From NCBI GenBank assembly GCA_035343375.1, contig DAOQYW010000010.1, forward strand, positions 2,236-66,235: DNA of 64,000 bases, written 5' to 3'. The stretch is from Bacteroidales bacterium (lineage in GTDB: Bacteria > Bacteroidota > Bacteroidia > Bacteroidales > ML635J-15). Position 1 is the stretch's first letter; every line of letters starts with the position of its first letter. The notes beneath the pieces are model-generated. The model made no database searches and had not been told where the DNA came from. It saw nothing but the letters and a program-made list of their open reading frames with translations. The translations under genes were made by a program, and so were the position numbers. Of the stretch, positions 9,426-53,426 are shown piece by piece.

Positions 9426-9433
9426 AGAGATTA

Positions 9434-21688: not shown

Positions 21689-21703
21689 TAATAGTTTGAC
21701 TTG

Positions 21704-36739: not shown

Positions 36740-36748
36740 AGTCTATAT

Positions 36749-36821: not shown

Positions 36822-36843
36822 TTATAGTTACAAAAAAATAAAA

Positions 36844-37385: not shown

Positions 37386-37390
37386 AAAAA

Positions 37391-37858: not shown

Positions 37859-37880
37859 CTGTTTTTATTAATTAAATAGA

Positions 37881-38540
37881 ATGCATTTTAATAAATTATA
37901 TTTAACATTATTGTTGGTTATAGTAAATATTACCTCTTTTTCCCAGTTAAATCCAATTAATGATCTTAATTTTCAGCATACATACTGGTATGGAAATAGC
38001 TTTTGCCCTTCATACAACTGTTTTACACTATCCTGGTCACCTCCTGATATTTCAAGCGATACTTTAGTTGGATATAATGTGTATAAAGATGAAGTATTGT
38101 GGCTGTTTACTGTAGATTGTCAAATTGACTGTCAGGGTATTGGACCATGCGATTATCCTGATTTTTATAATAATTATCCATTTTGGATAAAAGTAAAATC
38201 AGTTTATAATACTGCAAATGTTGAGTCTGTTGCAAATGATTCAATTTTTATGAATGATTTATATACAAATATTGATGAAATAAATGTTCTAGAATTTGTT
38301 CTGTTGCAAAACCCAATTGTTGCTGGAGAAAATATATCATTATTATTACCTATTCACGAACAGTATTTATGTAGTGTTAAATTGTTTAATCTATATGGTC
38401 AATTGTTAAAAGACTTCAAGATTTCTAATAGCCCATATTCTATTTTAACTTTTTCTTCTACTAATTTGCCTGCCGGTGTTTATATTATAGATGTGGAAAT
38501 AGATGGACAATTAACTAGCAGAAAGCTTGTTATAGAGTAA
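37881..38540 (+). CDS. Secreted hypothetical protein with T9SS C-terminal sorting domain
   Basis: A signal peptide is present. The C-terminal LLQNPIVAGENISLLL...GVYIIDVEIDGQLTSRKLVIE is a T9SS tail. Confidence 0.55.
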   Translation: MHFNKLYLTLLLVIVNITSFSQLNPINDLNFQHTYWYGNSFCPSYNCFTLSWSPPDISSDTLVGYNVYKDEVLWLFTVDCQIDCQGIGPCDYPDFYNNYPFWIKVKSVYNTANVESVANDSIFMNDLYTNIDEINVLEFVLLQNPIVAGENISLLLPIHEQYLCSVKLFNLYGQLLKDFKISNSPYSILTFSSTNLPAGVYIIDVEIDGQLTSRKLVIE

Positions 38541-38637
38541 GATAATAAGCAATATGTCTCAAATTTAATGAATTCCGCATTTGTCAATCAATATTTATAT
38601 ACTTTTGTGTCATGATTTTTAAAAATTCGTTTTAATT

Positions 38638-39564: not shown

Positions 39565-39626
39565 GAAGTGCCTAGAGTGCCTAGAGTGCCTAAAGTGTCT
39601 AGAGTGTCTAGAGTGCCTGGAGTTCC
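39564..39626 (+). repeat. Seven tandem 9-nt units (consensus TAGAGTGCC)
   Basis: The units read GGAAGTGCC, TAGAGTGCC, TAGAGTGCC, TAAAGTGTC, TAGAGTGTC, TAGAGTGCC, TGGAGTTCC, and begin at the last base of the preceding stop codon. Confidence 0.9.
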
Positions 39627-40019: not shown

Positions 40020-40970
40020 ATGAAATATTTGCTTAAAGCGTTCATTTATATTTTACTCTTTTTAGCTACCATTGCTTGTGGCAATAAGAAAGAAGGTGAT
40101 AATAAAATCACTGTTTTTCATGCAGGAAGCTTATCTGTTCCGTTTAAAAAGATAGCGGAAGAATTTAAAAAAGAAAATCCCGGTTTTGAAATTTTTGCAG
40201 AATCATCAGGTAGTCTTGACGCTGCACGTAAGATAACCGATCTTAATAAAGAATGTGATATTCTCGCAGTTGCAGACTTTTTGGTAATAGATAAATTAAT
40301 GATACCAAAATTTGCTTCATGGAATTTTGTGTTTGCCTCAAATGAGATGATTATTGCTTATACTGATAAATCTAATTATGCATCTGAAATAAACTCAAAA
40401 AATTGGCAAAATATCCTCTTAAACGAAAATGTAATTATAGGACGTTCCGAACCAAATGCAGACCCTTGTGGTTACAGAGCTGTTTTTGTGTTTCAACTTG
40501 CAGAGAAATTTCTTAAATCTGATAATCTTGCAAATAAATTAATTTTTATGCAGAATACAGTTATCAGACCTAAAGAAGTGGACTTGGTAGCTTTATTGGA
40601 AACCGGAAATATAGATTATCTGATGATTTACAAATCAGTCGCTTTGCAACATAATTTGAAGTTTGTTGAACTGCCTGATGAAATAAATCTAAGTAATCCT
40701 GAATACGAGACCTTATATAATACCGTTAGTATGAAAGTTAATGGGGCTGAACCGGGTCAGGAAACTGAGATTTTTGGTTCATCAATTTTGTATAGCTTTA
40801 CAATTCCCCTAAATTCTAAAAATCCTGAAGCTGCACTAAAATTTGCTTTATTTCTTACCAATCCCGACAAGGGTGGTAAAATCCTTAGCGAAATGGGTAT
40901 GGGGATTGTAAATTATTGCAGTAAAAGTTATAGAGATAAATTACCTAAAGAACTAGTTGAATTATTATAA
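40020..40970 (+). CDS. wtpA: WtpA-type tungstate/molybdate ABC transporter substrate-binding lipoprotein
   Basis: A lipoprotein signal (ATIAC) is present. The VFHAGSLSVPFKKIAEEF motif is typical of the WtpA subfamily, and NADPCGYR is also present. Confidence 0.7.
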   Translation: MKYLLKAFIYILLFLATIACGNKKEGDNKITVFHAGSLSVPFKKIAEEFKKENPGFEIFAESSGSLDAARKITDLNKECDILAVADFLVIDKLMIPKFASWNFVFASNEMIIAYTDKSNYASEINSKNWQNILLNENVIIGRSEPNADPCGYRAVFVFQLAEKFLKSDNLANKLIFMQNTVIRPKEVDLVALLETGNIDYLMIYKSVALQHNLKFVELPDEINLSNPEYETLYNTVSMKVNGAEPGQETEIFGSSILYSFTIPLNSKNPEAALKFALFLTNPDKGGKILSEMGMGIVNYCSKSYRDKLPKELVELL

Positions 40971-40997
40971 ATTTTGATAATATTTAAATTTGATAAG

Positions 40998-41954
40998 ATG
41001 TTGATATATAGCGAATTGCGAAAATTTTCAGGTCGGGTTACGATTACAATTGTATTTGTATTTTTTGGCTTTTTATTCTTGTTTAATTCTTGTAAACCCG
41101 ATCCGGAACCATTAAAACCTACAATAGAACTTGTTTTTGATGGCGATGTTACGCAGGATGGCGATATCGTTGCTATTGGTGCTCCTTTAAAGTTTCATAT
41201 TGTTGTTGAAGGACAGGAAGCAAATATTACAAATTTTACCATTAAAAAAGTCTATAACGGAATAACCAAGACCGTTATGGATTCAGGGTTGAACTCTGCC
41301 GGTTTTACATTAAATAAGACTTTTTATCAAAGTGTAGAGGATGAAGTTGTTTGGACTTTTGCAGTTCAGGATAGAAACTTGAATAAAGCTGAAATATCTA
41401 TGACAATTTATAAAGATCCTAATTCTCAGTTTGGCGGAATTCTAGAATTTCCGTCAATTACACTGGGTTATCAGGAAAACTCCTCAATAGAGAATTTCTT
41501 TTTACCATTTTTAGACGAAACATATTTTCAGGATTCTGCTAGTTTATATCAGGATATGGTTGATGTGCTGGTATATTTCAATTATCGTGAAGATAACGGA
41601 GTAGAGTTGCCTTCACCGACTTTTTCGTCCCCGGGAGAAGAAACTGCTGCAAATACTGAATTATATACAGAGTATTATCCGTTCCTTGTTGACTGGACGA
41701 CCAGAAATTACACTAAATATGATATTCGCGCAGATAATGGTGTCAGTGCCGAAGATTTTGATGAAGCTCATAACGACAGTTTATTAATTGTTTCCTACGA
41801 TGATGTCTGGGGAAAGAAGAAATACAAGTGGGCAAATGCAGGAATAATAATTCCATTTCAGACTGCCTCCGGCAAAAAGGGAATTATCAAAGTTCTTGAT
41901 GCAGAACATGTAGAAACAGGAAAGATTACATTTTCAATGAAAATTCAGATGTAA
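40998..41954 (+). CDS. Hypothetical lipoprotein
   Basis: The ORF track starts at TTG 40974, and I prefer ATG 40998. There is a hydrophobic leader ending FNSC, followed by acidic/proline residues (CKPDPEP). I recognised no family. Confidence 0.5.
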   Translation: MLIYSELRKFSGRVTITIVFVFFGFLFLFNSCKPDPEPLKPTIELVFDGDVTQDGDIVAIGAPLKFHIVVEGQEANITNFTIKKVYNGITKTVMDSGLNSAGFTLNKTFYQSVEDEVVWTFAVQDRNLNKAEISMTIYKDPNSQFGGILEFPSITLGYQENSSIENFFLPFLDETYFQDSASLYQDMVDVLVYFNYREDNGVELPSPTFSSPGEETAANTELYTEYYPFLVDWTTRNYTKYDIRADNGVSAEDFDEAHNDSLLIVSYDDVWGKKKYKWANAGIIIPFQTASGKKGIIKVLDAEHVETGKITFSMKIQM

Positions 41955-42038: not shown

Positions 42039-43445
42039 ATGAAAAAACATTTACTTTTAATTTTAACAATTGCTTTATTGTGTGTTAACGGATTAAATGC
42101 ACAGCAAGAAATAATGATTGGCTTTACTTTTCCGGATAACACAGCAGAAGAATTTACACCAGATCAGGGGTTAAGTGGAAATCTTACTTATGATTTACGA
42201 GCTGAAAGTTTAACAGTGGATCCTAGGGATCTTACCTTTACAGAAGGAGCAACAACTTATGCAGCAAGCGTGGATGGTTGGGATGCAGGTGCAAATGATA
42301 AGTTTTGGTCTATTAAATTTAAAGCTAACGGATATCAGAATTTTAAAGTATCTTCAAAAATGTATTCTGATGCAACCGGACCAAAAGAATTTAAATTACA
42401 GTGGAAAATGAGCGGTGGCGATTGGGCTGATGTTACAAATGGAACAATTACAGTTGCTTCTGATTGGACAACAGGTGTGTTAACAGATTTAATTTTACCT
42501 ACAGACTTGAACGACCCGGGTTCTACCTCAATTTCTTTAAGATGGATCATGACTTCAAATACTTCTGTTAATGGTGGCACTGTTGAAGCAACAGGAATTT
42601 CTAAAATTGATGATATAATTGTTTATGGCTCACCCGTTCCGGAACCTGTTACAATTATAGGCTTTGATTTTGCTGATGACACAGATACTGAATTTAATGC
42701 AGATTCAGGTATAGAAGCAAATTTGGGTTATGATATACGTGCCGAAAATGGTGCAGCACAAACAACCAGAACACTAACATACACAGAAGGAACAACTGAT
42801 TTTGCTGCAACTGCTTCAGAATGGGATAATGGTGCAGATGATAAATTTTGGTCTATAAAATTTAAAGCTGACGGATTTAGCCAGATGGCTGTTTCATCAA
42901 AGCAATATTCTGATGCTACAGGTCCTAAAAACTTTAAATTGCAATGGAAAATCAGCGGTGGCGAATATGCTGATGTTGCTGATGGGAACATTGCTTTAGC
43001 AACAGATTGGACGACAGGTATTGTTGAAGAATTAGCTCTCCCAACCGAAATGGAAGGTCAGGGATCATCTTCACTGTATATTCGTTGGATCATGACTGAC
43101 AATGTAAGCGTTTCTGATGGAACTGTTGATGCTGTAGGTATTTCAAAAATTGACGATATCGTTGTTGAAGGAATTGCCCCTAGTGGAATAGTAACAGAAT
43201 TATACAATTCCGAAATTATGATATATCCTAACCCTTGTGATGATTATTTTACTCTTGAAACAACTAATGATGTTAACAGAGTGGAAATTTATAACATACA
43301 GGGAGCTTTGGTTTATAGTTTGGATGAGAATTTTACCGGAAGTATAATCATCAATACTGTAGATTTTAGTTCGGGTATGTACTTTGTTAAACTTTATTCA
43401 GAAGATACAAAAGTTCCGTCATCAAAGAAGTTAATAGTTAATTAG
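42039..43445 (+). CDS. Secreted protein with two tandem ~175-aa domains and T9SS C-terminal sorting domain
   Basis: A signal peptide is present. The internal repeat covers aa 25-197 and aa 205-378 (DKFWSIKFKA.G...SDATGPK.FKLQWK.SGG...ISKIDDI.V.G). The C-terminal IYPNPCDDYFTLE... is a sorting domain. Confidence 0.6.
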   Translation: MKKHLLLILTIALLCVNGLNAQQEIMIGFTFPDNTAEEFTPDQGLSGNLTYDLRAESLTVDPRDLTFTEGATTYAASVDGWDAGANDKFWSIKFKANGYQNFKVSSKMYSDATGPKEFKLQWKMSGGDWADVTNGTITVASDWTTGVLTDLILPTDLNDPGSTSISLRWIMTSNTSVNGGTVEATGISKIDDIIVYGSPVPEPVTIIGFDFADDTDTEFNADSGIEANLGYDIRAENGAAQTTRTLTYTEGTTDFAATASEWDNGADDKFWSIKFKADGFSQMAVSSKQYSDATGPKNFKLQWKISGGEYADVADGNIALATDWTTGIVEELALPTEMEGQGSSSLYIRWIMTDNVSVSDGTVDAVGISKIDDIVVEGIAPSGIVTELYNSEIMIYPNPCDDYFTLETTNDVNRVEIYNIQGALVYSLDENFTGSIIINTVDFSSGMYFVKLYSEDTKVPSSKKLIVN

Positions 43446-43535
43446 TTCAATTTGTTTTCTGTTGTTAATCCCGGGAATAATAGCGATGTTGTCCTGCAAA
43501 GCTTGAGTTTCCGGGTTTATTTTTATTTTTGAAAC

Positions 43536-45875
43536 ATGAAGTGGATTTTGTTTGGTTGTTTTTTGTTGTTGTTGGGATTATTCAGTCAGGCTCAAAAAGT
43601 TTCTGGATATGTTAGAGATCCTGACAATAATGGAATTCCTGATGTCAATATTCTTGTGTCAGAAACAGGTGTGGGAACTATAACTGATAAAAATGGATTT
43701 TTTATTATTGAAAATCTGCAACATGGAAGATATAATCTTAAATTTATTTGTCTTGGTTATAAAACTGAATCTAAAGATATTCATCTGCAGAAAAACTCTG
43801 ACCTGGAATTGAATATTGTTTTAAAAAGTGATGTCTATATAACTGATGAAATAGTCATACAGGCAGATAAAGACATTGAAGAGACTGTTTTGGATATTCC
43901 AGTTCGTAGTAAAACTTTTACAATTCAGGAAATTAACAGTACTCCAGCCATTTCGACATATAAAATACTCGAAGGTATTTCGGGTGTAAATGTGAGTTCC
44001 GAAGCAGGAATGTTTTCCTCTACTGATGTTACAATGCGTGGACTGGGTGGAAATACAAAAGGAGGTACTTTGGTAGTGCTGGACGGTTCTCCAATAAATA
44101 AATCGGATGCAGGTTCCGTAAACTGGAGTATGATTGATAAGGATAATATTTCAACAATAGAGGTAATTAAAGGTCCTGGCTCTGTAATTTTCGGCTCAAA
44201 TGCGATGGGAGGAATAATAAACATAGTAAGTCGCAAACCAAGTGAAAAATTTTCAGCCAATCTAAGCTCTTCTTATGGCACATATAATACATTTGACGGC
44301 AAATTACGTTTATCAGGGATAAATAGTCAGGAAAACCTGTACTGGAAAAGTTTTTTTTCATACAGAAACAGTGACGGCTATATAAATACTCCGGATGAAA
44401 TAATTCTTGAAAATGATTCAATTGTAGTTCCTGTCTTTCTCGAAGAATATATGATCAGTGGATTGGTTGGTTGTAATCTGAATGAAAAAAACTCGGTTGA
44501 ATTATCTGTAAATTATTTTGACGACACAAAAGGCAGGGGAACAAAAATTTATGAATTTGCCGGTGCAAATACACAACGAAATACTGTACATAGTTTTGCA
44601 AAATATCGTGGACAAATTAAAAGTGTCAAGCTGTTTGTTAACATTTTTACTCTTTTTGAGGACTATTTTCGTTTGAACGAATATTACAGTGATGGAGAGT
44701 ATGCCCTGTATGAAATAAATTCTGACCGTCTCGAAAACGGAGCAAAATTTTTATCGCAATATTTTTTAACCGAAAACATTGAAATTACTGCCGGAGCAGA
44801 ATATAAAAGAGGCTCAGTAAACGGATCGGATATTTATTATACTTCTACTGATAAGATAAAAAATAAGGGCAGTTCTAATATTTATTCAGGTTTTGCTCAG
44901 GTAAAAATAAAAATTCCGGAAACAAAATTTACATTTGTCCCCGGCGTCAGATACGATTATGCAGTATTTAATAATGCATCTTTTATTATCGAATATCCAT
45001 CGTATTCAATTGAGTATTTAAGTGAATTCCAATTTGAAATGACCGAACCTGTCCATTGGTCTTCTTTTAGTCCAAAATTTTCACTTGAATATGCATTTTC
45101 AGACAAAAATAAGTTATTCGCAACTGTCGCAAAAGGCTTTCGGGCTCCGGTACTTGACGATCTTTGCAGGTCAGATCAGGTTAAAACGGGATTTAGAGTA
45201 GCAAATCCCGAAATAAGTGCAGAATATTTGTACAGTTTCGAAATTGGTGGCGATTTTGAGTTATTCGAAGGATTTTATGCCGGTGTATCGGGATATTACA
45301 ATATAGGCAAAGATTTTATGTATCTTCTTAGTACAGGCGATTCAGTAAATATGGGATATACAATAGCACCAATTTATCAGACGGATAATATTGGAGAAGT
45401 GAATATTTATGGAGTAGAAACAGATTTGAGTTATTCATTTAACAAGTTGTTCAATGTTTTTGTAAATCATACATGGAATAGATCTGTGATTACCGAATTT
45501 ATTGTAAATCCTGAAGGAGCAGGAGTGGACCTAACCGGAAAATTTTTAACTGATATTCCTGACCATAAAATTTCAGGAGGTGTTGCATTTTTTAATAAGA
45601 TTATAAATGTCTCATCTTCAGCAAATTATACCGGAAAAAGATGGATAAAGGATGATAACTCAATAGAAACAAGTTATTTTTTAACAGATAAATATCCCTC
45701 TTATACAACTTTCGATTTGAAATTGTGGAGGTCATATCGCAATTTCGATTTTAGTATAACTATAGATAATATTCTTAATAAAATTTATACAAATTCTAAA
45801 GGATATAAATGTCCGGGAAGAATGATAATTTTTGAAGTGAAGTTTAATTTAAAATACGATAAAGATGAAAATTAA
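43536..45875 (+). CDS. TonB-dependent receptor with N-terminal carboxypeptidase-regulatory-like domain
   Basis: The CarboxypepD_reg-like N-terminus reads VSGYVRD...GFFIIENLQHGRYNLK. The plug motif is IEVIKGPGSVIFGSNAMGGIINIVSRKP. A long beta-barrel region follows. Confidence 0.85.
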   Translation: MKWILFGCFLLLLGLFSQAQKVSGYVRDPDNNGIPDVNILVSETGVGTITDKNGFFIIENLQHGRYNLKFICLGYKTESKDIHLQKNSDLELNIVLKSDVYITDEIVIQADKDIEETVLDIPVRSKTFTIQEINSTPAISTYKILEGISGVNVSSEAGMFSSTDVTMRGLGGNTKGGTLVVLDGSPINKSDAGSVNWSMIDKDNISTIEVIKGPGSVIFGSNAMGGIINIVSRKPSEKFSANLSSSYGTYNTFDGKLRLSGINSQENLYWKSFFSYRNSDGYINTPDEIILENDSIVVPVFLEEYMISGLVGCNLNEKNSVELSVNYFDDTKGRGTKIYEFAGANTQRNTVHSFAKYRGQIKSVKLFVNIFTLFEDYFRLNEYYSDGEYALYEINSDRLENGAKFLSQYFLTENIEITAGAEYKRGSVNGSDIYYTSTDKIKNKGSSNIYSGFAQVKIKIPETKFTFVPGVRYDYAVFNNASFIIEYPSYSIEYLSEFQFEMTEPVHWSSFSPKFSLEYAFSDKNKLFATVAKGFRAPVLDDLCRSDQVKTGFRVANPEISAEYLYSFEIGGDFELFEGFYAGVSGYYNIGKDFMYLLSTGDSVNMGYTIAPIYQTDNIGEVNIYGVETDLSYSFNKLFNVFVNHTWNRSVITEFIVNPEGAGVDLTGKFLTDIPDHKISGGVAFFNKIINVSSSANYTGKRWIKDDNSIETSYFLTDKYPSYTTFDLKLWRSYRNFDFSITIDNILNKIYTNSKGYKCPGRMIIFEVKFNLKYDKDEN

Positions 45876-46920
45876 AAATTTATTATTACTGTTTGTTTTG
45901 ACAGGCATATTTCAACAGTCTTGTGTGGCACAGAATGTCAAAGTTGGTGAACCTCTTTTTGTTGATTCGGACAATAAAACGAATTGTTTTTTTGACAATT
46001 CTGAAATTTTCAAATTGGAAACTGTCGATATTTATGTTGGTGGTGAGGTGAAATCCCCTGGTATTGTCAGTTTTGAAAAATTACCATTACATGAAATTAT
46101 TGTCAAAGAAACTGTTATTGAAAACGGTGAAGATAAGTTTATTGGAGCTTTTCGCTATATAGGCTATTCACTCGCTGATATTCTTAATTTGTTTGAACTT
46201 GATAAGGCTAATGCTGAAGCATTTCCTCCACTTGTAGATATTTATGTTGAAATTGAAAATAATGACGGAGAAAAAGTTGTAATAAGCTGGGGTGAAATTT
46301 ATTACTCCAATAATCTTGATGATATTATTATTGCAACAGCAGTGGCACGAATAGTCCCGGAAAAAACACAGCAGATGTGGGAATTGCCCGAACAATCCAA
46401 ACTTGTTATTATGGATGATTTAATAACTGTCAGAAATATCAGCAGTCCGTCAAAAATAAGCGTAAAAACATATAAAAATGATGATATCGTAATAATTAAA
46501 GGAAAATCACCTGTATATTCTCCAATATTAAATATTATTATGAACAATGAAATAATAGTGACATTGGACGGAAATACCGATTTCCCTGACACAAAAACAG
46601 TTCATACAATATTCTATGGAAAGGGAAGAGGTTTACATGGCACTAAACCTACAGAGGGATTAAGTTTGAAGGATGTTTTAATGCCATACATCGGGTTTGA
46701 AGCAAAGACTTTGATGGACAAGTTGGTTGTAGTTGTTGCTGATGATGGATACCGAAATGTTTACACTTGGAGTGAAATATGTAATCGTAACGATCAGGCG
46801 GACATCTTATTGCTTTGCGATCCGGAGGCCACAGATAAAGGTATTTTCAGAGTGTATCCAAGCTGTGATTTTTTCTCTGATAGAGCAATTAAGGGAGTTG
46901 ACAGAATTATAATTAAGTAA
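45865..46920 (+). CDS. Exported protein with two tandem repeats resembling the YedY/MsrP-type (Oxidored_molyb) fold
   Basis: A signal peptide is present. The two halves share the pattern G(Y/L)SL(A/K)D(I/V)L ... (N/D)DG(E/Y) ... W(G/S)EI. The second half ends FRVYPSCDFFSDRAIKGVDRIII, like the Moco-domain C-terminus. The assignment is weak and pattern-based. Confidence 0.35.
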   Translation: MKIKNLLLLFVLTGIFQQSCVAQNVKVGEPLFVDSDNKTNCFFDNSEIFKLETVDIYVGGEVKSPGIVSFEKLPLHEIIVKETVIENGEDKFIGAFRYIGYSLADILNLFELDKANAEAFPPLVDIYVEIENNDGEKVVISWGEIYYSNNLDDIIIATAVARIVPEKTQQMWELPEQSKLVIMDDLITVRNISSPSKISVKTYKNDDIVIIKGKSPVYSPILNIIMNNEIIVTLDGNTDFPDTKTVHTIFYGKGRGLHGTKPTEGLSLKDVLMPYIGFEAKTLMDKLVVVVADDGYRNVYTWSEICNRNDQADILLLCDPEATDKGIFRVYPSCDFFSDRAIKGVDRIIIK

Positions 46921-46929
46921 TGAATCATT

Positions 46930-47667
46930 ATGACTGAAAATTTATCCTTATCACTTTTTTGTTGTACATTGTTTCTTTTGACCATCAATGTATTGTTGGC
47001 TATATTGAAAAAGAAGAAAATAAATCTGATTTTCGGATTTATCACTCTTTTAAGTGTATTGATTGCGGTTATTAATATTTATTTGCAATCAGGTCATTTA
47101 CCAATGTCAGGTACTTTCGAAAAAATGCAGAACATGGTTCTGATAATTGTTTTATTAGGTCTGATATATGAGTTTATAAACAGAAAAAAAGATATAAATG
47201 CTCCGGAATTCTGGATTATTGCTGTGATATTTCAGACCCTGGCTTTTTTTGATGAACTAAAAGTTGACCCGATGTTTTACATGTACGATAATATTTTCGT
47301 TGCCATGTTCTTTCAATTGAGACTGATATCAATTGCAGTGCTTTCTTTTTCAGTTTCTATGTATCTGACATCATTAAAATTGGAAACAGGTACTGATGAA
47401 AAGTCTTTTATGATGCATCATGCAGCAAATTTTACTCTTCTTGGGGCAATTTTATTTATTGCTGGTGAGTTTTCCGGTTCAATGTGGGCACAACTTGCTT
47501 ACGGAGATTCCTGGAGATGGAGTAAAAATTTCTTTACATCAGGTGCAATGTTCCTGCTGGCACTTTTAGGCTCTCACCTTGCTCCGTCATGGATAAAGAA
47601 TAAAAATGTACAGATTCTTCTTTCAATTATTCCATTGTTGATAATAATAATTCTATTCCTTACATAA
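46930..47667 (+). CDS. CcsA/CcmC-family (WWD-domain-like) integral membrane protein, divergent
   Basis: It is a multi-pass membrane protein. SGHLPMSGTFEK matches the CcsA GxxPxSNxYE region. WAQLAYGDSWRWSKNF aligns with the WAxxAWGxxWxWDPKE tryptophan-rich motif but is degenerate. Confidence 0.55.
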   Translation: MTENLSLSLFCCTLFLLTINVLLAILKKKKINLIFGFITLLSVLIAVINIYLQSGHLPMSGTFEKMQNMVLIIVLLGLIYEFINRKKDINAPEFWIIAVIFQTLAFFDELKVDPMFYMYDNIFVAMFFQLRLISIAVLSFSVSMYLTSLKLETGTDEKSFMMHHAANFTLLGAILFIAGEFSGSMWAQLAYGDSWRWSKNFFTSGAMFLLALLGSHLAPSWIKNKNVQILLSIIPLLIIIILFLT

Positions 47668-48477
47668 ATGAAAAAAATAATAAAATTTTTATCTTCTTTA
47701 AAACTGACTGCAATACTTGTAATACTGCTTGTCGCTATTATGCTTACAGGAGGCTTTTTAACCCGCTGGGACAGCATTTATTACGGTTTCAAAGAAATGA
47801 ATAATCTAATAACACTTGATTGGTTTTTAAATCACCAGTCACACAACACTGCTATTTTAATCTGGTTTGTTGTTCTTTGTGCAACAGCCGTTTTGTTTGG
47901 GATAAATATGGTGCTTTGTTCTTTTGACAATCTTCTGAGAGTATCCATAAAAAGGAAAAATTTAAAAAATATTACATTATTTGTTGTTCACATTGTTTTT
48001 GTTATTATCCTTTCGATGCACGCTCTGGTTTTGGTTATTGGATACAAGCAAGGTGGAATTGTCCTAACTGAGAATGAAACATATAAGTTGAAAGATGGTT
48101 ATGAATTAAAACTTGAAGAGATCAAATTCATTGATAATAAAGCTTTGCTGAAAGGAGACAAAAAATCGCACCGTTTGGAAATGACTCTGGATTCGTTCCA
48201 TTATAAAGAAAATTATGCAAAACTCACTTTGTACAAGGATAATAAAGAAATAGTTAGAGGGGAAGCTTATATTTTTCAACCCATTTTTGGAGAAGGCTTT
48301 CAGATAACACTGGACAAATTTATCATGGATAAAAAAACCAAACAGCCTGCAGTTATTATTACTGTAGGGAAAAATCCTCTGACATGGATTTTCTTTGTTT
48401 TTTACGGTTTGGGAATAATCACTATGCTGGCATATCTGGTAGTGAGATGGAAGTTTCAAATAACAAGATCCAAATAA
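47668..48477 (+). CDS. ResB/Ccs1-like membrane protein, truncated form
   Basis: The N-terminus FLSSLKLTAILVILLVAIMLTGGFL, then WF...AVLFGINMVLCSF, match the ResB N-terminal architecture. The protein is only 269 aa. Its start abuts the upstream stop (TAAATG). Confidence 0.5.
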   Translation: MKKIIKFLSSLKLTAILVILLVAIMLTGGFLTRWDSIYYGFKEMNNLITLDWFLNHQSHNTAILIWFVVLCATAVLFGINMVLCSFDNLLRVSIKRKNLKNITLFVVHIVFVIILSMHALVLVIGYKQGGIVLTENETYKLKDGYELKLEEIKFIDNKALLKGDKKSHRLEMTLDSFHYKENYAKLTLYKDNKEIVRGEAYIFQPIFGEGFQITLDKFIMDKKTKQPAVIITVGKNPLTWIFFVFYGLGIITMLAYLVVRWKFQITRSK

Positions 48478-48537: not shown

Positions 48538-49173
48538 TTAAATTCTCGGTCTCCTGGGTTTGACTTTTATAATTTTCATCTTATTGGGATTTTCCTGCAT
48601 CTGCTTATCTATTTGAGGCTTTTTAATTTCAGGCTTTCTTAATTGAGTTTTTTTCAATTCAGGCTTCTTTAAAATTAGTTTCGATAACTTTTTTTCTTCT
48701 GTTTTATCCTCAAAATCGCCTTTATAATTTTTCTGCATCCCGTTAAGGAAGTTTCTCATTATTTGATCATGACAAATTCTGTATTTTTCGTTATCAGGTT
48801 TGCGAAAAAATGCACTTAACTCATGCTTGCTGATAGGATATTCAACAGATTCTAGCATTTGAAGAATATCTTCGTCCTTAAGGTTTAATGCAATTTTTAA
48901 TTTACGCAGTATAATGTTGTTGGTTAATCGCTTTTCAGGAATAGGTTGCCCACCTTCTTTTTTACCACGTTTAAAAATGATAAAACCATTTAAGAAAGTT
49001 GCAAACTGGAAATCAGTTATTTTGCAATATCCTTCAGTTTCTTCTTTCTTTAACCATGAACTGATTTCTGTTCTGCTTACAGTCATTTCACCAAGCGAAA
49101 ATGTCTTTATCATCATATCATCACTTAAATCAAAAGTAAATCGTAAGCGGCGTAAAATGTCGTTGTTGGTCAT
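48538..49173 (-). CDS. DUF1456 (YehS-like) protein with Lys/Pro-rich C-terminal tail
   Basis: There are two NDILRRLR/NNIILRKLK-type DUF1456 repeats. The tail reads KKPELKKTQLRKPEIKKPQIDK. Confidence 0.6.
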   Translation of the reverse strand: MTNNDILRRLRFTFDLSDDMMIKTFSLGEMTVSRTEISSWLKKEETEGYCKITDFQFATFLNGFIIFKRGKKEGGQPIPEKRLTNNIILRKLKIALNLKDEDILQMLESVEYPISKHELSAFFRKPDNEKYRICHDQIMRNFLNGMQKNYKGDFEDKTEEKKLSKLILKKPELKKTQLRKPEIKKPQIDKQMQENPNKMKIIKVKPRRPRI

Positions 49174-49252
49174 TTGCTAAAATTTGATTTAACAAAGTTA
49201 AGAAAAATAATTAAAGCATTTGTTTACTCTACCTTATTATAAATTAAATCAT

Positions 49253-50563
49253 TTATCGTGATTTTCGAGTTAAAAACTTTTGTTTGGTGTATCCGGATTG
49301 AGTTGTTGTATTTGCTGTTTTTTGCTTTTGCTGATTACTGTTTTGAGTTGCAACTTTTTGTTTCCCTTGTTCCTGATTATTCCTTCGGGGAGGTCTTTGC
49401 TGCTTGGGAACCTTAACAGGATTATGGTCAATTAAAGGAAATGGATGATTATCAATTATCTTAATTTTTTTTGCAATAAGTTTTTCTACATCGCGCAAAT
49501 ATTGTTTTTCTTCTGCATCACATAATGATATTGCTGTTCCTTTTGCTCCTGCACGTCCAGTCCTGCCTATCCGGTGAACATAAGTTTCGGCAATATTTGA
49601 CATCTCGAAGTTAATTACATATTCCAAATCGTCAACGTCAATTCCTCGTGCTGCTATATCTGTTGCAACTAGAACACGGGTTGTTTGTGCTTTAAAATTT
49701 GACAGTGCTCTTTGTCGTGCATTCTGTGCCTTATTCCCGTGAATTGCCTCTGCCTTGATATCGTTTTTAATTAAAACTTTAACAACCTTATCGGCACCAT
49801 GTTTAGTTCTGGTAAATACAAGTGCAGTTTTGATATTCCTGTCTTTCAGAATTTCCAATAATAAAGAATTCTTATTGCCTTTGTCAACAAAATAAACATA
49901 TTGATTGACAATGTCAACGGTTGACGATATTGGTGTTACAGCAACTTTTTCAGGTTTGTACAAGATTGTATCAGCAAGTTTTACTATTTCAGGGGGCATA
50001 GTTGCCGAAAAGAATAATGTTTGACGTTTACGCGGCAAAAGTGCAATTATTTTCTTAACATCGTGAATAAAACCCATATCTAACATACGGTCTGCTTCGT
50101 CTAGAACAAATATTCCAACATCTGACAAACTTATAAAACCCTGACTTATTAGGTCAAGTAAACGACCAGGTGTAGCAATAAGTACATCAATTCCATTACG
50201 TAGTGCATTTGTTTGAGGGTTTTGATTTACTCCTCCAAAAACTACTGTATTTGTTATGCCTGTATGTCTTCCATAAGAATTAAAACTTTCACCTATTTGA
50301 ATAGCCAGTTCACGTGTAGGAGTAAGAATAAGACTTCTGATTTTTCGTTTTCGTTCGTTTGTTTGTGTTGAACGTAAAATTTGTAAAATTGGAATTGCAA
50401 ATGCTGCTGTTTTACCGGTACCGGTTTGTGCACAGCCTAAGAGATCTGTTCCGCTTAAAACTATTGGTATTGACTGCTCCTGAATTGGAGTGGGAGTGAT
50501 GTAACCTTCTTCTTCTACTGCTTTTAATATAGGTTCAATTATGTTGAGTGATCTGAATTGCAT
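49253..50563 (-). CDS. DEAD-box ATP-dependent RNA helicase (RhlE-like)
   Basis: A Q motif region is present, with [17 protein letters not shown] and [10 protein letters not shown], and a basic C-terminal tail. I moved the start to Met14 (MQFRSLNI). Confidence 0.9.
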
Positions 50564-50712
50564 AAATAAATTGGGAAATTCTTTTATCTGATTGACAAAC
50601 AAAGCCGGTCAGGAAATTTCGATACAAAAATAAGCTTTTTTCCCGGGTTATCAAAACGAACAAGCAGACATAAAGCCACAAGAAAATTTAAAAGGTATTA
50701 TTAGTCTGATTA

Positions 50713-51510
50713 TTAGGCAGTTGGATGTTGCTCGAAAATATTTTTCATAAATCTGTAAAGTTCAGGATGCTTGAGTTTTAATTCATCAGGTCTTTCAAAA
50801 AAATATTCGCAACTGACAGAAAAGAACTCAGCAGCATTTTTTGTTGCATAGGGATGTATATCGGATTTCCCGTCTTTAATTTTCCGAATTTCTTTGTTCA
50901 TAATAAACATCCAGGGAATAAGAAATTTCTTGTCAAGCAAGGCTTTGGGAATTCCATCAACTTCGCCGTCTTCCTTATCAATCAGATGAATAAATTCGTG
51001 AATACATGTATTGCGGGCATCAGAAAAATCATCAAATCCTTCATACAAGGCGGTACGTGAAATCAATAACTTCCCTTCCAAAAATCCGAATCCAACCAAA
51101 CCACGAAAGAATCTGTCAGGACCGGTAGTCTCAAATTCTTCGTTGAAATTGTCGGGATAAATAATAACTTCATTTAGAACCGAATATTCCCATTCTGGAT
51201 AAGAAAATACCGGAATAATTGCTGAAGCAGCAACCAAAACCCTGTCTTTTTCAGTAACTGTGGTATCAACTCCCGTAAATTTACAAGTTGCCAGAAATCT
51301 TTCTACTGATGACTCAAAAAGTCTTTTGTTTTTTTCGGTAAGAATAATGTAATATTTTACGTCCGAATTAAGAATTATTCTTCGGTTGTCCGGCATTTTT
51401 TTTAGATTGAGTTGCCGGTAAATTCCCTTACCATAAACAACAATAAAACCAACTATTGTAACAGGGACAAGCAAAATTAAAAAATAAACTAATGTGTTTA
51501 GTGTTTCCAT
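50713..51510 (-). CDS. M90 (MtfA-like) zinc metallopeptidase with N-terminal TM segment
   Basis: The HExxH motif lies in CIHEFIHLIDKEDGEVDG, and the C-terminus reads AEFFSVSCEYFFERP. Confidence 0.65.
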   Translation of the reverse strand: METLNTLVYFLILLVPVTIVGFIVVYGKGIYRQLNLKKMPDNRRIILNSDVKYYIILTEKNKRLFESSVERFLATCKFTGVDTTVTEKDRVLVAASAIIPVFSYPEWEYSVLNEVIIYPDNFNEEFETTGPDRFFRGLVGFGFLEGKLLISRTALYEGFDDFSDARNTCIHEFIHLIDKEDGEVDGIPKALLDKKFLIPWMFIMNKEIRKIKDGKSDIHPYATKNAAEFFSVSCEYFFERPDELKLKHPELYRFMKNIFEQHPTA

Positions 51511-51579: not shown

Positions 51580-52359
51580 ATGAAGTTTGAAGCAAAATAT
51601 ATTTTTCTTTATCTTTTTGCAGCGTTAGCATTACTGTTCATCGTAGTTCCTGTAATAAATATGTTTTTTGCCACTGATCTTGATATCTTTTTTCAAACAG
51701 CACGTGATTCTGAAGTAAAGAAAAGCATTTTTTTGACTTTGTGGGTTTCTCTTGCAGCAACTATTTTGTGTGCAGCATTTGCGGTTCCTTTGGCTTATGT
51801 TATCGCAAAGAAATCTTTCCGATTTAAAACCTTGTTGCTAGGGATTATAAATATTCCTATAGTTATTCCTCATTCGGCTGCAGGTATTGCTGTGTTAGGG
51901 TTGGTGAGTCGTGATACTGTAATTGGTAAAATGGCAGGCTCTGTTGGATTGAGTTTTATTGATAGTCCGCTTGGAATAGGTGTTGCCATGGCTTATGTGA
52001 GTTTGCCGTTTTTAATTATTTCTGCAATAAATGGATTTTCGGAAGTGCCCGAAAAGCTTGAAAATGCTGCACAAAATCTGGGAGCGTCACGTTGGCAGAC
52101 GTTTTTTAAAATATCATTACCATTAGCAAAACAATCGGTTTTTTCGGGTTTGATTTTAATGTTTTCGAGAGGAATCAGTGAATTCGGTGCTGTGATTATG
52201 CTTGCATATTTCCCGACAATAACACCAATTCTGATATATGATAGATTTACTTCATTCGGACTGACCTATGCAAGACCTGTAGCCGTTATTTTTGTTTTAA
52301 TTTGTCTGACGGTTTTTCTGTTTTTCTATTTGCTCACTAATAAAAAACGTAGGGATTGA
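51580..52359 (+). CDS. wtpB: Tungstate/molybdate ABC transporter permease (WtpB/ModB-like)
   Basis: It has six TM segments, and the EAA loop reads ENAAQNLGASRWQTFFKISLPLAK. It overlaps the ATPase gene by 4 nt. Confidence 0.7.
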   Translation: MKFEAKYIFLYLFAALALLFIVVPVINMFFATDLDIFFQTARDSEVKKSIFLTLWVSLAATILCAAFAVPLAYVIAKKSFRFKTLLLGIINIPIVIPHSAAGIAVLGLVSRDTVIGKMAGSVGLSFIDSPLGIGVAMAYVSLPFLIISAINGFSEVPEKLENAAQNLGASRWQTFFKISLPLAKQSVFSGLILMFSRGISEFGAVIMLAYFPTITPILIYDRFTSFGLTYARPVAVIFVLICLTVFLFFYLLTNKKRRD

Positions 52360-53426
52360 TGATTGAACTAAAGAATATACGCAGAAAATTCAAGGATTTT
52401 GAGTTATCAGATATCTCTCTGAATATTTCAAAAGGGGAATATCATGTTTTAGTAGGTCCTTCAGGAGCAGGAAAGACTTTGCTATTGAATTTAATTGCAG
52501 GTTTTGTTAAACCAGATTCAGGTCGTATAATTCTTAATAATTCAGATATTACCGATTTATTGCCTCAAAATAGAAATGTTTCATATCTATTTCAGGATCT
52601 TGCTCTATTTCCACATTTGAGTGTAGAAGAAAATGTAGCTTTCTCGCTTAAAATTAAAAAGATGAAAAAGCAAGATGTCTCTGCTCAGGTTAAAAAATAT
52701 TTAGAGTTTACCGATGTTCTACATTTAAAAGACAGAAGTATATCTAAACTATCGGGAGGCGAAAAACAAAGAGTAGCGTTGGCACGGAATCTCATCACCG
52801 AATCGGGAATCTTGATGTTAGATGAGCCTTTTTCAGCAATAGATACTCAATTAAAATTGTCTCTAAAAAAGTTGTTAAAGAAAATTTCGGATTATGGAGT
52901 TACAATAATTCATGTAACACACAATCCCGAAGAAGCAATAAGTTTAGCTCATAAAATTACCGTAGTCGAAAATGGTAAAATAATTAGCAGCGGAACTTAT
53001 AAAGAAGTTTTTTCAAAACCATTGAATATGTTTATTGCAGGGTTTAGCGGTTATAAAAACTTTTTCAAAGTAAATAGTGTTTTTAGAGAGGGCGACTCTC
53101 TGTTTGTAGATGTAGTGATAGAAAATAGTACTGATAACTCGGTAAGATTTGAAATTCCAAACAAACCGGATACTGATTTAAATTCAATAATTATTGACAG
53201 TTCTAATATTGTATTATCTGATAATAAACTGATAAGCAGTGCTAGAAATAGTTATGAAGGAATAGTAGAAAGTGTTTTTCGGATTGATTCTGCATATGAT
53301 GTCGAAATGAATATTGGAATTCCGGTTTGGGTAAAGCTTACAGAAAGCTCTTTCAACGAGCTAGGTATAGAAAAAGGTAAAAGAATGTGGATAAGTTTTA
53401 AGGCCTCTGCTGTGTCAGTTTTTTAG
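52356..53426 (+). CDS. wtpC: Tungstate/molybdate ABC transporter ATPase with C-terminal TOBE/Mop-like domain (WtpC/ModC-like)
   Basis: Walker A is GPSGAGKT, the signature is LSGGEKQRVALAR, and Walker B is LMLDEPFSAID. A C-terminal extension of about 120 aa is present. Confidence 0.75.
   Translation: MMIELKNIRRKFKDFELSDISLNISKGEYHVLVGPSGAGKTLLLNLIAGFVKPDSGRIILNNSDITDLLPQNRNVSYLFQDLALFPHLSVEENVAFSLKIKKMKKQDVSAQVKKYLEFTDVLHLKDRSISKLSGGEKQRVALARNLITESGILMLDEPFSAIDTQLKLSLKKLLKKISDYGVTIIHVTHNPEEAISLAHKITVVENGKIISSGTYKEVFSKPLNMFIAGFSGYKNFFKVNSVFREGDSLFVDVVIENSTDNSVRFEIPNKPDTDLNSIIIDSSNIVLSDNKLISSARNSYEGIVESVFRIDSAYDVEMNIGIPVWVKLTESSFNELGIEKGKRMWISFKASAVSVF

What the first reader, a model, noticed from the sequence alone, without database searches (positions are those of the whole stretch)
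43536..48477. Tightly coupled operon: TonB-dependent receptor + tandem YedY/MsrP-fold-like protein + CcsA-like + half-size ResB-like protein
Four co-directional genes are packed with an 11-nt overlap, a 9-nt gap and a 0-nt gap (TAAATG), which suggests one transcription and translation unit. CcsA/ResB pairs are known as the system II cytochrome c heme export/ligation machinery. Three things here depart from that role. The pair is joined to an outer-membrane TonB-dependent transporter. The ResB-like protein is roughly half the canonical length. None of the operon products I read contains a CXXCH heme-attachment motif. The exported 351-aa protein looks like two copies of a Moco-domain-like fold, without an obvious conserved Moco Cys context. 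I do not recognise this combination as a described system. It may be an envelope-spanning uptake or handling module for a tetrapyrrole or a metal cofactor.
Basis: partly seen in the sequence, partly recalled or inferred. Interest (0 to 1): 0.7.

Follow-up and report, generated by a model that had tools for sequence, protein, structure and literature searches.

The report
Tungstate-uptake operon with repurposed heme-handling pair
The four genes are real and belong to a larger, conserved tungstate/molybdate uptake operon of uncultured Bacteroidales, in which two shrunken relatives of the cytochrome c heme machinery and a cofactor-less sulfite-oxidase-fold protein appear to serve metal acquisition, a role nobody has described.

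Summary
The four ORFs and their junctions (11-nt overlap, 9-nt gap, TAAATG) are exact. All three fold guesses hold.

- **351-aa protein:** a tandem sulfite-oxidase (SUOX/YedY) fold with no conserved Cys. It is exported by Sec, not Tat.
- **245-aa protein:** has the CcsA/CcmF fold (TM-score 0.73 to CcsBA).
- **269-aa protein:** a remote, short ResB relative.
- **CXXCH:** absent from every ORF of the 64-kb window.

The genes sit inside a wtpA…wtpBC tungstate/molybdate ABC operon, next to Moco biosynthesis genes. The order wtpA–lipoprotein–T9SS protein–TBDR–SUOX-like–CcsA-like–ResB-like–wtpB–wtpC recurs in relatives. The TBDR–SUOX-like–WtpABC core is widespread. The pair is an add-on.

The pair belongs to an unnamed family (265 representative clusters). 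It lies almost always in TonB/ABC metal-import operons, with MolA-like binding proteins, NTPase_1/DUF2478 and DUF364. In four lineages it lies beside SUOX-like proteins.

The pair keeps the transmembrane heme histidines but lacks both periplasmic histidines, so it is not a cytochrome c synthase.

Best reading: an envelope-spanning W/Mo acquisition system, with the pair as a heme b membrane module (electron relay or cofactor hand-off). That mechanism is inferred, not shown.

The parts
40020..40970 (+). wtpA: lipoprotein substrate-binding protein of a tungstate/molybdate ABC importer; first gene of the cluster
   Evidence: TIGR03730 tungstate_WtpA scores 313.5 bits against a cut-off of 242.75, and NF003196 has E 1e-103. 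The N-terminus LATIAC is a lipobox. It occupies the same position in L001, L002, L004, L014, L022 and L024.
40974..41954 (+). 326-aa lipoprotein of unknown fold (signal ...LFNSC|KPDPEP); likely the outer-membrane lipoprotein partner of the TBDR
   Evidence: No Pfam, NCBIfam or PDB hit. Homologues lie directly upstream of the TBDR, or of the T9SS gene plus TBDR, in every relative. This includes distant ones that lack the pair: L006 has two copies, each followed by a TBDR, and L008 has one.
42039..43445 (+). 468-aa secreted or surface protein: two ~190-aa repeats plus a T9SS C-terminal sorting domain
   Evidence: Por_Secre_tail E 1e-13. It is conserved in this position, with one repeat (287-290 aa) in L004 and L006.
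43470..43530 (+). conserved GC-rich stem-loop followed by a T-run (terminator/attenuator-like) between the T9SS gene and the TBDR gene
   Evidence: MFE -22.5 kcal/mol, z -2.47. The stem TCCCGGGAA...TTTCCGGGA is kept in L022 and L001. L002 and L014 keep it with changes on both sides.
43536..45875 (+). TonB-dependent outer-membrane receptor (CarboxypepD_reg N-domain, plug, 22-strand barrel type)
   Evidence: PF00593, PF07715 and PF13715. The best NCBIfam subfamily is TonB-hemin at 187 bits, below its 317-bit cut-off. Orthologues precede the SUOX-like gene in all Wtp-type loci.
45865..46920 (+). 351-aa Sec-exported (signal peptide or lipobox Cys20) tandem SUOX/YedY-fold protein without the Mo-ligand Cys
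   Evidence: AF2 pLDDT 89.6. Foldseek top hits are 1xdy and 2blf. The halves align at E 0.0017. The family has 1105 hits. Homologues L058 and L046 pass PF00174 (42 and 28 bits, cut-off 24). About 50 of 62 N-termini carry a lipobox Cys, the rest have an SPase I site, and one of 62 has an RR.
46930..47667 (+). 245-aa, 8-TM CcsA-like heme-handling-protein homologue with a degenerate WWD loop (residues 183-200) and the TM-His (H216); no P-His1 or P-His2
   Evidence: PF01578 is hit weakly in 20 of 20 members. Foldseek gives 7s9y TMq 0.73 and 6zmq 0.61. In 41 diverse homologues W186, W195, S198, F201, F202, E180 and H216 are 100% conserved, W197 98%.
47668..48477 (+). 269-aa, 4-TM short ResB/CcsB-like protein with two invariant His in TM3 (H108, H118) and a ~110-aa periplasmic domain
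   Evidence: The family profile reaches PF05140-positive proteins. H108, H118 and W66 are invariant in 61, 37 and 13 sequence sets. It is always directly downstream of the CcsA-like gene.
51580..52359 (+). wtpB: ABC permease of the same transporter. In this genome three reverse-strand genes separate it from the cluster
   Evidence: BPD_transp_1. Orthologues directly follow the ResB-like gene in L001 and L004, and lie 0.5-2.5 kb away in L014 and L024.
52356..53426 (+). wtpC: ABC ATPase with a C-terminal TOBE (oxyanion-sensing) domain
   Evidence: ABC_tran E 9e-37 and TOBE E 1.4e-8.

Best explanation
The four genes are the distal half of a conserved tungstate/molybdate acquisition cluster: wtpA, a lipoprotein, a T9SS-sorted protein, the TBDR, the SUOX-like protein, the CcsA-like and ResB-like pair, then wtpB and wtpC.

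Proposed steps, with how far each is supported:
1. Surface proteins and the TonB-dependent receptor bring a scarce W/Mo species across the outer membrane. This is inferred from context.
2. The Sec-exported tandem SUOX-fold protein lacks the Mo-ligand Cys and cannot carry cytoplasm-assembled Moco. It binds or processes that species in the periplasm and passes tungstate/molybdate to WtpA. Fold and linkage are shown. The activity is inferred.
3. WtpBC imports the oxyanion. The family assignment is shown.
4. The 245-aa and 269-aa proteins form an inner-membrane complex derived from the system II heme exporter/synthase CcsBA. The complex keeps the transmembrane heme-b site but has lost both periplasmic His ligands and has no CXXCH client. 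It is therefore not a cytochrome c synthase.
5. The complex most likely holds heme b. It then serves the periplasmic step either as a transmembrane electron relay (as MsrQ does for MsrP, and as the b-heme of CcmF does) or by handing a cofactor to the SUOX-like protein. This step is inferred.
For: Metal identity:
- WtpA is above the TIGR03730 cut-off, and WtpC has a TOBE domain.
- moeA, moaA, moaC and MOSC-moaB lie directly upstream.

Gene order:
- The order recurs in L001, L002/3, L004, L013, L014, L022 and L024 (51-95% identity to the window).
- wtpBC follows the ResB-like gene directly in L001 and L004.
- The core p326-(T9SS)-TBDR-SUOX-like-WtpA-WtpB-WtpC occurs without the pair in L006/7 and L008/9. 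SUOX-like-WtpABC occurs alone in Lentimicrobium L005.

Folds.

The pair across 41 and 37 diverse homologues:
- Invariant residues are H216 (CcsA-like) and H108 and H118 (ResB-like), with W186/W195 invariant and W197 at 98%.
- H216 sits at the cytoplasmic end of the helix after the W-rich loop (helices plus the positive-inside rule). That is the TM-His position described for CcsBA and CcmF (PMC10663686).

Context of the wider pair family (265 representative clusters):
- About 19 of 36 metagenome loci carry [TBDR]-Peripla_BP_2-FecCD-ABC-[NTPase_1/DUF2478]-pair-[DUF364].
- The binding proteins have the molybdate/tungstate protein MolA (3psa) among their top three PDB hits, E 1e-22. MolBC-A is a molybdate importer (PMC4031551).
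- MoeA is adjacent in L045, and an AOR-family gene lies 5 kb from the pair in L016.
- In L058 the pair is followed by a PF00174-positive tandem SUOX-like protein and an HTH_17+PBP_like regulator.
- SUOX-like genes also flank the pair in L027 and L046.

CXXCH is essentially absent around the pairs.
Against: - No experiment exists, and heme binding by the pair is inferred from conserved His positions only.
- The W-rich loop region of the AF2 model is its least confident part (pLDDT 56-60).
- No redox step is known to be needed for tungstate or molybdate uptake, so the chemical role of an electron relay is unexplained.
- Most members of the 351-aa family work without the pair, so the pair is dispensable for the core function.
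- The TBDR's nearest named subfamily is heme/hemoglobin receptors, although below the cut-off.
- The Peripla_BP_2 proteins of the wider family also resemble Ni-chelate and B12 binders, and their best PDB hit (4hn9) has no known ligand. The wider family's link to Mo/W is therefore suggestive, not proven.
- One distant member (L059/60) lies next to a quinohemoprotein-amine-dehydrogenase-like cluster with a c-type cytochrome.
- No Moco riboswitch precedes wtpA, so W/Mo-responsive regulation is not shown.
Confidence: 0.5

Rival explanations
1. Ordinary dedicated system II cytochrome c maturation. The pair exports heme and attaches it to a CXXCH apocytochrome encoded elsewhere, and its position next to the TBDR is incidental.
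For: The pair has the CcsA fold and ResB homology, and the TM-His residues are conserved. A distant family member lies beside a cytochrome-c-containing cluster (L059/60). In B. thetaiotaomicron, genes annotated 'CcsA' sit in an iron-starvation locus together with a thiol oxidoreductase (PMC10434189).
Against: There is no CXXCH anywhere in the 64-kb window, and CXXCH is at about chance frequency around 40 pair loci. No His is conserved at the P-His1 position; Y119/M118 sit there instead. The protein ends before any P-His2 loop. Both His define the family's active site (PMC10663686). The pair's context is consistently metal import.
Confidence: 0.05
2. Heme (tetrapyrrole) acquisition module. The TBDR takes up heme, and the heme-handling-like pair moves or processes it at the inner membrane. 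The module happens to be nested in the wtp operon.
For: The TBDR's best named subfamily is TonB-hemin. The pair derives from heme handling proteins and keeps heme-ligand His. The wider family sits with Peripla_BP_2/FecCD importers, the class that also imports heme and B12. The SUOX-like protein of L046 carries a CKACH insertion.
Against: The TBDR score is far below the heme-receptor cut-off (187 vs 317 bits), and no His lies between its FRAP- and NPxL-like boxes (sequence). TBDR and the SUOX-like protein are fixed between, or next to, WtpA and WtpBC in all relatives, including those without the pair. Moco genes, MoeA, DUF364 and MolA-like binding proteins point to Mo/W.
Confidence: 0.12
3. MsrPQ-like periplasmic oxidoreductase. 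The SUOX-fold protein is an enzyme that receives electrons from the membrane pair. It is co-expressed with W/Mo uptake only because it needs the cofactor, and it is not part of uptake.
For: The protein has the SUOX fold, with YedY/MsrP as the top structural match. A membrane partner with conserved heme-type His lies directly downstream, as msrQ follows msrP. The pair and SUOX-like genes are adjacent in four lineages.
Against: No Cys is conserved in 62 homologues. The proteins carry Sec or lipoprotein signals, not Tat, and periplasmic Moco enzymes need Tat export of the folded holo-form (established knowledge). The 351-aa family is found 1105 times, mostly without the pair, and lies inside TBDR/WtpABC clusters.
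Confidence: 0.12

Closest known systems
CcsBA / CcsA-ResB (system II cytochrome c heme exporter-synthase; H. hepaticus CcsBA, PDB 7S9Y)
   Same: The CcsA-like protein has the same core TM fold (TMq 0.73), with a W-rich external loop followed by a helix that carries a conserved His at the inner leaflet. The ResB-like partner has a His-bearing TM3 and a periplasmic domain closed by a last TM. The two genes are adjacent and translationally coupled.
   Different: Gene order is A then B. The CcsA-like protein is 245 aa and lacks P-His1 and the whole P-His2 loop. The WWD Asp is Ser (WxWS). The ResB-like protein is half size, with a periplasmic domain of ~110 aa. There is no CXXCH client. The context is TonB/ABC metal import, not cytochromes.
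CcmF (system I; PDB 6ZMQ), a heme-handling protein with a stable transmembrane b-heme
   Same: It is the second-best structural match (TMq 0.61). It is a precedent for a family member that keeps a permanent bis-His b-heme in the inner leaflet, thought to act in electron transfer (PMC10663686).
   Different: CcmF is about 650 aa, has P-His ligands, and works with CcmH/CcmE on CXXCH substrates.
MsrPQ (YedYZ) of E. coli
   Same: A periplasmic SUOX-fold protein is encoded directly upstream of an integral-membrane heme protein that feeds it electrons. YedY is the top structural match of the 351-aa protein.
   Different: MsrP is a Tat-exported, Cys-ligated Moco enzyme with a single domain. MsrQ belongs to an unrelated fold (ferric-reductase-like). 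MsrPQ is not linked to W/Mo transport.
WtpABC / ModABC / MolBC-A oxyanion ABC importers
   Same: WtpA, WtpB and WtpC(TOBE) are ordinary members. The wider pair family sits with MolA-like type II importers.
   Different: Described systems have no dedicated outer-membrane receptor, no SUOX-like periplasmic partner and no heme-handling-like membrane pair.
Bacteroidota TBDR + surface lipoprotein nutrient systems (BtuB-BtuG, HmuR-HmuY, XusAB), and inner-membrane siderophore reductases such as FoxB (from memory)
   Same: The logic is the same: surface or secreted binding proteins, a TBDR, periplasmic hand-off, an ABC importer, and optionally a heme-containing inner-membrane reductase that frees the metal.
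   Different: The substrate here is W/Mo rather than Fe, B12 or heme. The accessory proteins belong to unrelated families.

Membership tests
Heme handling proteins (CcsA/CcmC/CcmF; PF01578) | Conserved core of TM helices (fold) | tested here: met
   AF2 model pLDDT 84.2. The Foldseek top three are 7s9y (TMq 0.73), 6zmq (0.61) and 7s9z, all at probability 1.00. The next hit has TMq 0.23 and probability 0.21.
Heme handling proteins (CcsA/CcmC/CcmF; PF01578) | Score above Pfam's gathering threshold | tested here: not met
   15.6 bits against a 29.9 cut-off for the window protein. All 20 family members hit, but all are sub-threshold (best E 2.6e-4).
Heme handling proteins (CcsA/CcmC/CcmF; PF01578) | Periplasmic WWD tryptophan-rich loop | tested here: inconclusive
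   A W-rich loop GSxW186xxxxxG192D193xW195xW197S198KxF201F202 is 95-100% conserved in 41 homologues. The canonical WWD Asp is Ser, and this region has the lowest pLDDT in the model.
Heme handling proteins (CcsA/CcmC/CcmF; PF01578) | Two periplasmic His ligands, P-His1 and P-His2 (PMC10663686) | tested here: not met
   No His is conserved at the outer end of TM5; Y119 (95%) and M118 (85%) sit there. H56 is invariant only in the narrow clade. The protein ends after TM8, so there is no P-His2 loop.
CcsBA system II synthase | TM-His pair, one in CcsB TM3 and one in CcsA after the WWD | tested here: met
   H216 (CcsA-like) and H108 (ResB-like TM3) are 100% conserved, and H118 is an additional invariant. 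The positions are inferred from topology, not from a model of the complex.
CcsBA system II synthase | CXXCH apocytochrome client in the operon or genome | tested here: not met
   None in the operon or the 64-kb window. Six of 658 ORFs near the pairs carry one, which is about chance. The rest of the genome could not be searched.
ResB/CcsB (PF05140) | Pfam match | tested here: not met
   No hit for the window protein, and 3 of 13 relatives hit at E>=0.25. Transitive homology is shown: the family profile hits PF05140-positive proteins at E 1e-12 to 1e-8.
ResB/CcsB (PF05140) | Large (~300 aa) periplasmic domain | tested here: not met
   About 110 aa lie between TM3 and TM4. The alignment shows a ~85-column deletion even relative to short ResB proteins.
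Sulfite oxidase / YedY family (PF00174 Oxidored_molyb) | Moco-domain fold | tested here: met
   Foldseek finds only 1xdy (E 4.8e-5) and 2blf (3.4e-4) below 1e-3. Homologues L058 and L046 pass the PF00174 cut-off, and L058 matches the 351-family HMM at E 3e-24. The window protein itself has no Pfam hit.
Sulfite oxidase / YedY family (PF00174 Oxidored_molyb) | Conserved Cys ligand to Mo, and Tat export of the holo-enzyme | tested here: not met
   No Cys is invariant or near-invariant in 62 sequences apart from the lipobox Cys. The signals are Sec or lipoprotein type; one of 62 has an RR.
TonB-dependent receptors | Plug and beta-barrel domains | tested here: met
   PF07715 E 3.5e-21 and PF00593 E 1.7e-37.
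TonB-dependent heme/hemoglobin receptors (TIGR01785) | Score above the curated cut-off | tested here: not met
   187.5 bits against a 316.85 cut-off.
WtpABC tungstate/molybdate ABC transporter | WtpA equivalog, permease, and ATPase with TOBE | tested here: met
   TIGR03730 at 313.5 bits against 242.75. BPD_transp_1, ABC_tran and TOBE are present. Ligand specificity (W vs Mo) is not testable here.

The most novel reading that the evidence does not exclude
The short CcsA/ResB-like pair is a new functional class of heme-handling proteins that serves TonB/ABC-dependent acquisition of W/Mo rather than cytochrome c biogenesis. It works with Sec-exported SUOX-fold proteins that have lost the Mo-ligand Cys. 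It acts either as a two-site heme-b electron relay or as a cofactor exporter/loader. This lets the cell free tungstate/molybdate from complexed forms, such as thio-oxyanions, a metallophore complex, or exogenous pterin cofactor bound in the former Moco pocket, before WtpA or MolA-like proteins capture it.
Probability: 0.3. Interest if true: 0.85.

Novelty: new variant of a known kind. Interest (0 to 1): 0.7.

Why it matters
How Gram-negative anaerobes get tungsten and molybdenum across the outer membrane, and out of the sulfidic or complexed forms that dominate anoxic habitats, is essentially unknown. Textbook uptake starts at the periplasmic binding protein.

This cluster offers a concrete and widespread candidate:
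- More than 1000 SUOX-like homologues, all 'hypothetical'.
- A dedicated TBDR with surface and secreted accessory proteins.
- A periplasmic protein that reuses the Moco-binding fold without the catalytic Cys.

It would also be the first heme-handling-protein pair with a role outside cytochrome c assembly. About 265 sequence clusters of this pair have no name or annotation.

Both points are directly testable in cultivable carriers. Lentimicrobium carries the core, and Ferrimonas carries the pair.

Tried and rejected
- **Moco riboswitch upstream of wtpA:** none at the gathering threshold or at E<=10.
- **Sequence-profile searches of the 245-, 269- and 351-aa families against PDB sequences:** no hit even at E 10. 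Only structure comparison and transitive profiles worked.
- **Sigma-70 promoter and terminator scan:** at shuffle level and uninformative for Bacteroidota.
- **Genome-contig scan with the narrow 245 family:** only 6 Bacteroidales MAG loci.
- **tblastn of a pair member against plasmids:** nothing.
- **PDB sequence search of the 326-aa and 468-aa proteins:** only the T9SS tail matched.
- **Placing Cys residues of the L058 SUOX-like protein on the MsrP Mo-ligand Cys by alignment:** the alignment is unreliable at this distance, so no claim is made.
- **Literature searches for TonB-dependent W/Mo uptake in Bacteroidota, or for CcsA/ResB in uptake loci:** no description found. The B. thetaiotaomicron BT2473-82 'CcsA' locus contains a cytochrome-type thiol oxidoreductase, and its relation to this pair could not be tested.
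- **Cluster look-up of 10 family representatives:** only 'hypothetical protein' names. The one cultured genus is Ferrimonas.

Full report
**Observation.** The junctions are an 11-nt overlap, a 9-nt gap and TAAATG. None of the products carries CXXCH or CXXXCH. The same holds for the other genes of the cluster, and no ORF segment of at least 80 aa in the whole 64-kb window carries CXXCH.

**What each protein is.**

*779-aa protein.* This is a standard TonB-dependent receptor with CarboxypepD_reg, plug and barrel domains. Its nearest named subfamily is the heme/hemoglobin receptors, at 187 bits against a cut-off of 317.

*351-aa protein.*
- It has no Pfam, NCBIfam or PDB-sequence hit.
- An AlphaFold2 model built from 62 homologues is confident (pLDDT 89.6, pTM 0.85).
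- Only three PDB chains from two entries match below E 1e-3, two chains of E. coli YedY (1xdy) and Starkeya sulfite dehydrogenase (2blf).
- Its two halves align to each other (hhalign E 0.0017, 22% identity over 96 columns).
- Two relatives found later, L058 and L046, pass Pfam's cut-off for PF00174 Oxidored_molyb. L058 matches the family HMM over its full length (E 3e-24).
- No Cys is conserved apart from a lipobox Cys. About 50 of 62 N-termini are lipoprotein signals, the rest are SPase I signals, and only one of the 62 has a twin-arginine pair.
- Periplasmic Moco enzymes are exported folded through Tat (established knowledge). This Sec-exported, Cys-less protein is therefore not a conventional Moco enzyme.

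*245-aa protein.*
- It hits PF01578 only weakly, but all 20 family members do so colinearly.
- Its AF2 model (pLDDT 84.2) has CcsBA open (7s9y, TMq 0.73), CcmF (6zmq, 0.61) and CcsBA closed (7s9z) as its top three matches, all at probability 1.00. The next hit has TMq 0.23 and probability 0.21.

*269-aa protein.*
- It has no direct family hit.
- A full HMMER search with its family profile found 265 representative clusters.
- The weaker ones (E 1e-12 to 1e-8; 328-373 aa) pass PF05140 ResB at 56-70 bits and share both TM3 histidines.

- The gene at 40020-40970 is WtpA, the tungstate/molybdate binding protein (TIGR03730 at 313.5 bits against a 242.75 cut-off).
- The genes at 51580-53426 encode the matching permease and a TOBE-domain ATPase.
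- MoeA, MoaA, MoaC and a MOSC-MoaB fusion lie at 34780-39564.
- In relatives 51-95% identical to the window proteins, the order is WtpA, 326-aa lipoprotein, T9SS-tailed protein, TBDR, SUOX-like, CcsA-like, ResB-like. This recurs in L001, L002/3, L004, L013, L014, L022 and L024.
- In L001 and L004, WtpB and WtpC follow immediately. The three reverse-strand genes at 48538-51510 in the window are therefore a local insertion.
- A stem-loop plus T-run at 43470-43530 separates the upstream genes from the TBDR (-22.5 kcal/mol, z -2.5). It is kept in relatives, with changes on both stem sides in L002 and L014. It looks like a terminator or attenuator that sets the ratio of upstream to downstream products.

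**Core and add-on.**
- The 351-aa family is large, with 1105 hits, all named 'hypothetical'.
- In more distant Bacteroidales the arrangement is lipoprotein-(T9SS protein)-TBDR-SUOX-like-WtpA-WtpB-WtpC, without the pair (L006/7, L008/9).
- Lentimicrobium has SUOX-like-WtpABC alone (L005).
- The SUOX-like protein is thus tied to the Wtp transporter. The CcsA/ResB-like pair is a lineage-specific addition.

**The pair is a family of its own.**

Context. Using the conserved motif, 36 metagenome loci were fetched and their neighbours classified with reference proteins.
- The two genes are always adjacent, CcsA-like first.
- In about 19 loci they follow Peripla_BP_2-FecCD-ABC, often with a TBDR and ExbBD-TonB. 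In L050 two copies of the pair flank the binding-protein gene instead.
- An NTPase_1/DUF2478 gene lies before the pair in 14 loci, and DUF364 lies after it in 8.
- In four lineages the pair is adjacent to a SUOX-like gene: the window clade, L027, L046 and L058.
- In L058 an HTH_17+PBP_like regulator follows. From memory, that is the architecture of the tungstate-responsive TunR family.

Other links to Mo/W.
- The binding proteins have the molybdate/tungstate protein MolA (3psa/3psh) among their top three PDB matches at E 1e-22. MolBC-A is a type II molybdate importer (PMC4031551).
- MoeA is adjacent in L045.
- An AOR-family gene lies 5 kb from a lone pair in L016.

CXXCH near the pairs. CXXCH-bearing ORFs are at about chance level, 6 of 658. 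There are two intriguing exceptions: a CKACH insertion in the L046 SUOX-like protein, and a CTQCH insertion in the L049 CcsA-like protein.

**Conserved residues and what they imply.**
- Across 41 CcsA-like sequences (median 26% identity), F127, E180, G183, W186, W195, S198, F201, F202 and H216 are invariant.
- Across 37 ResB-like sequences, G28, W66, H108, H118 and F242 are invariant.
- AF2 helices plus the positive-inside rule give 8 TMs for the CcsA-like protein. The W-rich loop (183-200) is periplasmic, and H216 sits at the cytoplasmic end of the next helix.
- H108 lies in the inner half of ResB-like TM3.
- According to the structural review of this superfamily (PMC10663686), these are the positions of the two TM-His that hold the inner-leaflet heme in CcsBA, one in each subunit.
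- The same review defines the family's active site by WWD plus P-His1 and P-His2. Here no His is conserved at the P-His1 position (Y119/M118 instead), and the protein stops before a P-His2 loop.
- The membership test for a cytochrome c synthase therefore fails. A transmembrane heme-b site is plausibly retained.
- H118, one helix span above H108, together with Y119/M118 could form a second site. This is inference.

**Most likely mechanism.** The cluster is an envelope-spanning W/Mo acquisition system.
- *Reasonably supported:* the link to W/Mo, the TBDR as the outer-membrane step, the periplasmic location and SUOX fold of the 351-aa protein, and import by WtpABC.
- *Inferred:* that the SUOX-like protein binds or processes the imported species in the former Moco pocket. 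Also inferred is that the pair is a heme-b module supporting this step, either as an electron relay (as MsrQ does for MsrP, or the b-heme of CcmF) or by loading a cofactor onto the Sec-exported protein (as CcsBA does for apocytochromes).
- *Unexplained:* what chemistry would need electrons. Release of W/Mo from thio-oxyanions, metallophore complexes or exogenous pterin cofactor are possibilities.

Rivals are scored in their own sections: ordinary cytochrome maturation, a nested heme-uptake module, and an MsrPQ-like enzyme merely co-expressed with uptake. The first is the weakest.

**Novelty.** No source names any member of the three families. The one informative label is a JGI COG-style name, and the only cultured carriers seen are Ferrimonas. 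Five literature searches found no description of TonB-dependent W/Mo uptake in Bacteroidota or of CcsA/ResB-like proteins in such operons. The library is incomplete, so earlier mention elsewhere cannot be excluded.

I rate the finding as a new variant of known kinds: a TonB/ABC metal-uptake system, the heme-handling-protein superfamily and the SUOX fold. The combination is unusual and recurrent, and it is directly testable.

Noticed in passing
window 7711-9138 (-), 9334-9426 (-): Selenocysteine machinery: SelA (PF03841, E 4e-126) and a tRNA-Sec (Rfam 62 bits). The 660-aa ORF at 5732-7714 (-) next to them was not scanned. This fits an organism with Sec-containing enzymes, which may depend on W/Mo.
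   Followed up: partly
window 9681-18306 (+): Two paralogous NuoF-like/[FeFe]-hydrogenase gene sets (570+596 aa, and 155+651+574 aa), followed by Cache/PAS histidine kinases at 18336-23904. This marks a strict anaerobe.
   Followed up: partly
window 39567-39623: A 9-bp tandem repeat (AGTGCCTAG, 6.3 copies, 89% matches) lies just after the MOSC-MoaB stop, in the 455-nt spacer before wtpA. It is absent from all fetched relatives. Function unknown.
   Followed up: partly
window 48538-51510 (-): DUF1456, DEAD-box helicase and peptidase M90 genes on the opposite strand split wtpBC from the rest of the cluster. In L001 and L004 wtpBC is contiguous, and the same three gene types lie downstream. This looks like a local rearrangement.
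   Followed up: yes
L046 1567-2277: The SUOX-like protein downstream of a CcsA/ResB-like pair carries a CKACH (CXXCH) motif. The motif sits in an insertion within the loop that corresponds to residues 161-179 of the window's 351-aa protein. It could be a heme c site matured by the pair, or it could be chance.
   Followed up: partly
L049 1631-2551: A CcsA-like homologue has a ~50-aa insertion (PATAG repeats plus CTQCH) in the loop before the helix that leads to the W-rich loop. By my topology this loop is cytoplasmic, so the motif's meaning is unclear.
   Followed up: no
L050 7038-13972: Two copies of the CcsA-like/ResB-like pair occur in one operon, flanking the Peripla_BP_2 gene and followed by FecCD, ABC and NTPase genes.
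   Followed up: no
L059 1-9921; L060: A distant pair (247+306 aa; PF01578 E 1e-4) lies at the end of a quinohemoprotein-amine-dehydrogenase-like cluster (radical SAM, QH-AmDH gamma, peptidase S8, a cytochrome-c-like 213-aa protein). This branch may still serve a cytochrome.
   Followed up: partly
L006 2006-5010: A second p326-like lipoprotein + TBDR pair lies just upstream of the main lipoprotein-T9SS-TBDR-SUOX-like-WtpABC cluster. This suggests the lipoprotein and the receptor form a unit that can duplicate.
   Followed up: no
window 53489-56032 (+), 56373-57806 (+): Immediately after wtpC lies an 847-aa CotH-kinase/lamin-tail-domain protein with a T9SS sorting tail, then a B12-binding radical SAM protein. 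No link to the cluster was seen in relatives.
   Followed up: no
L016 6244-8049; L008 1-1280: A LytTR-domain protein and a SAM methyltransferase lie next to a lone pair in L016/L026/L028. Homologues of both also lie ~5 kb upstream of the TBDR-SUOX-like-WtpABC cluster in L008. This may be shared synteny or regulation.
   Followed up: no
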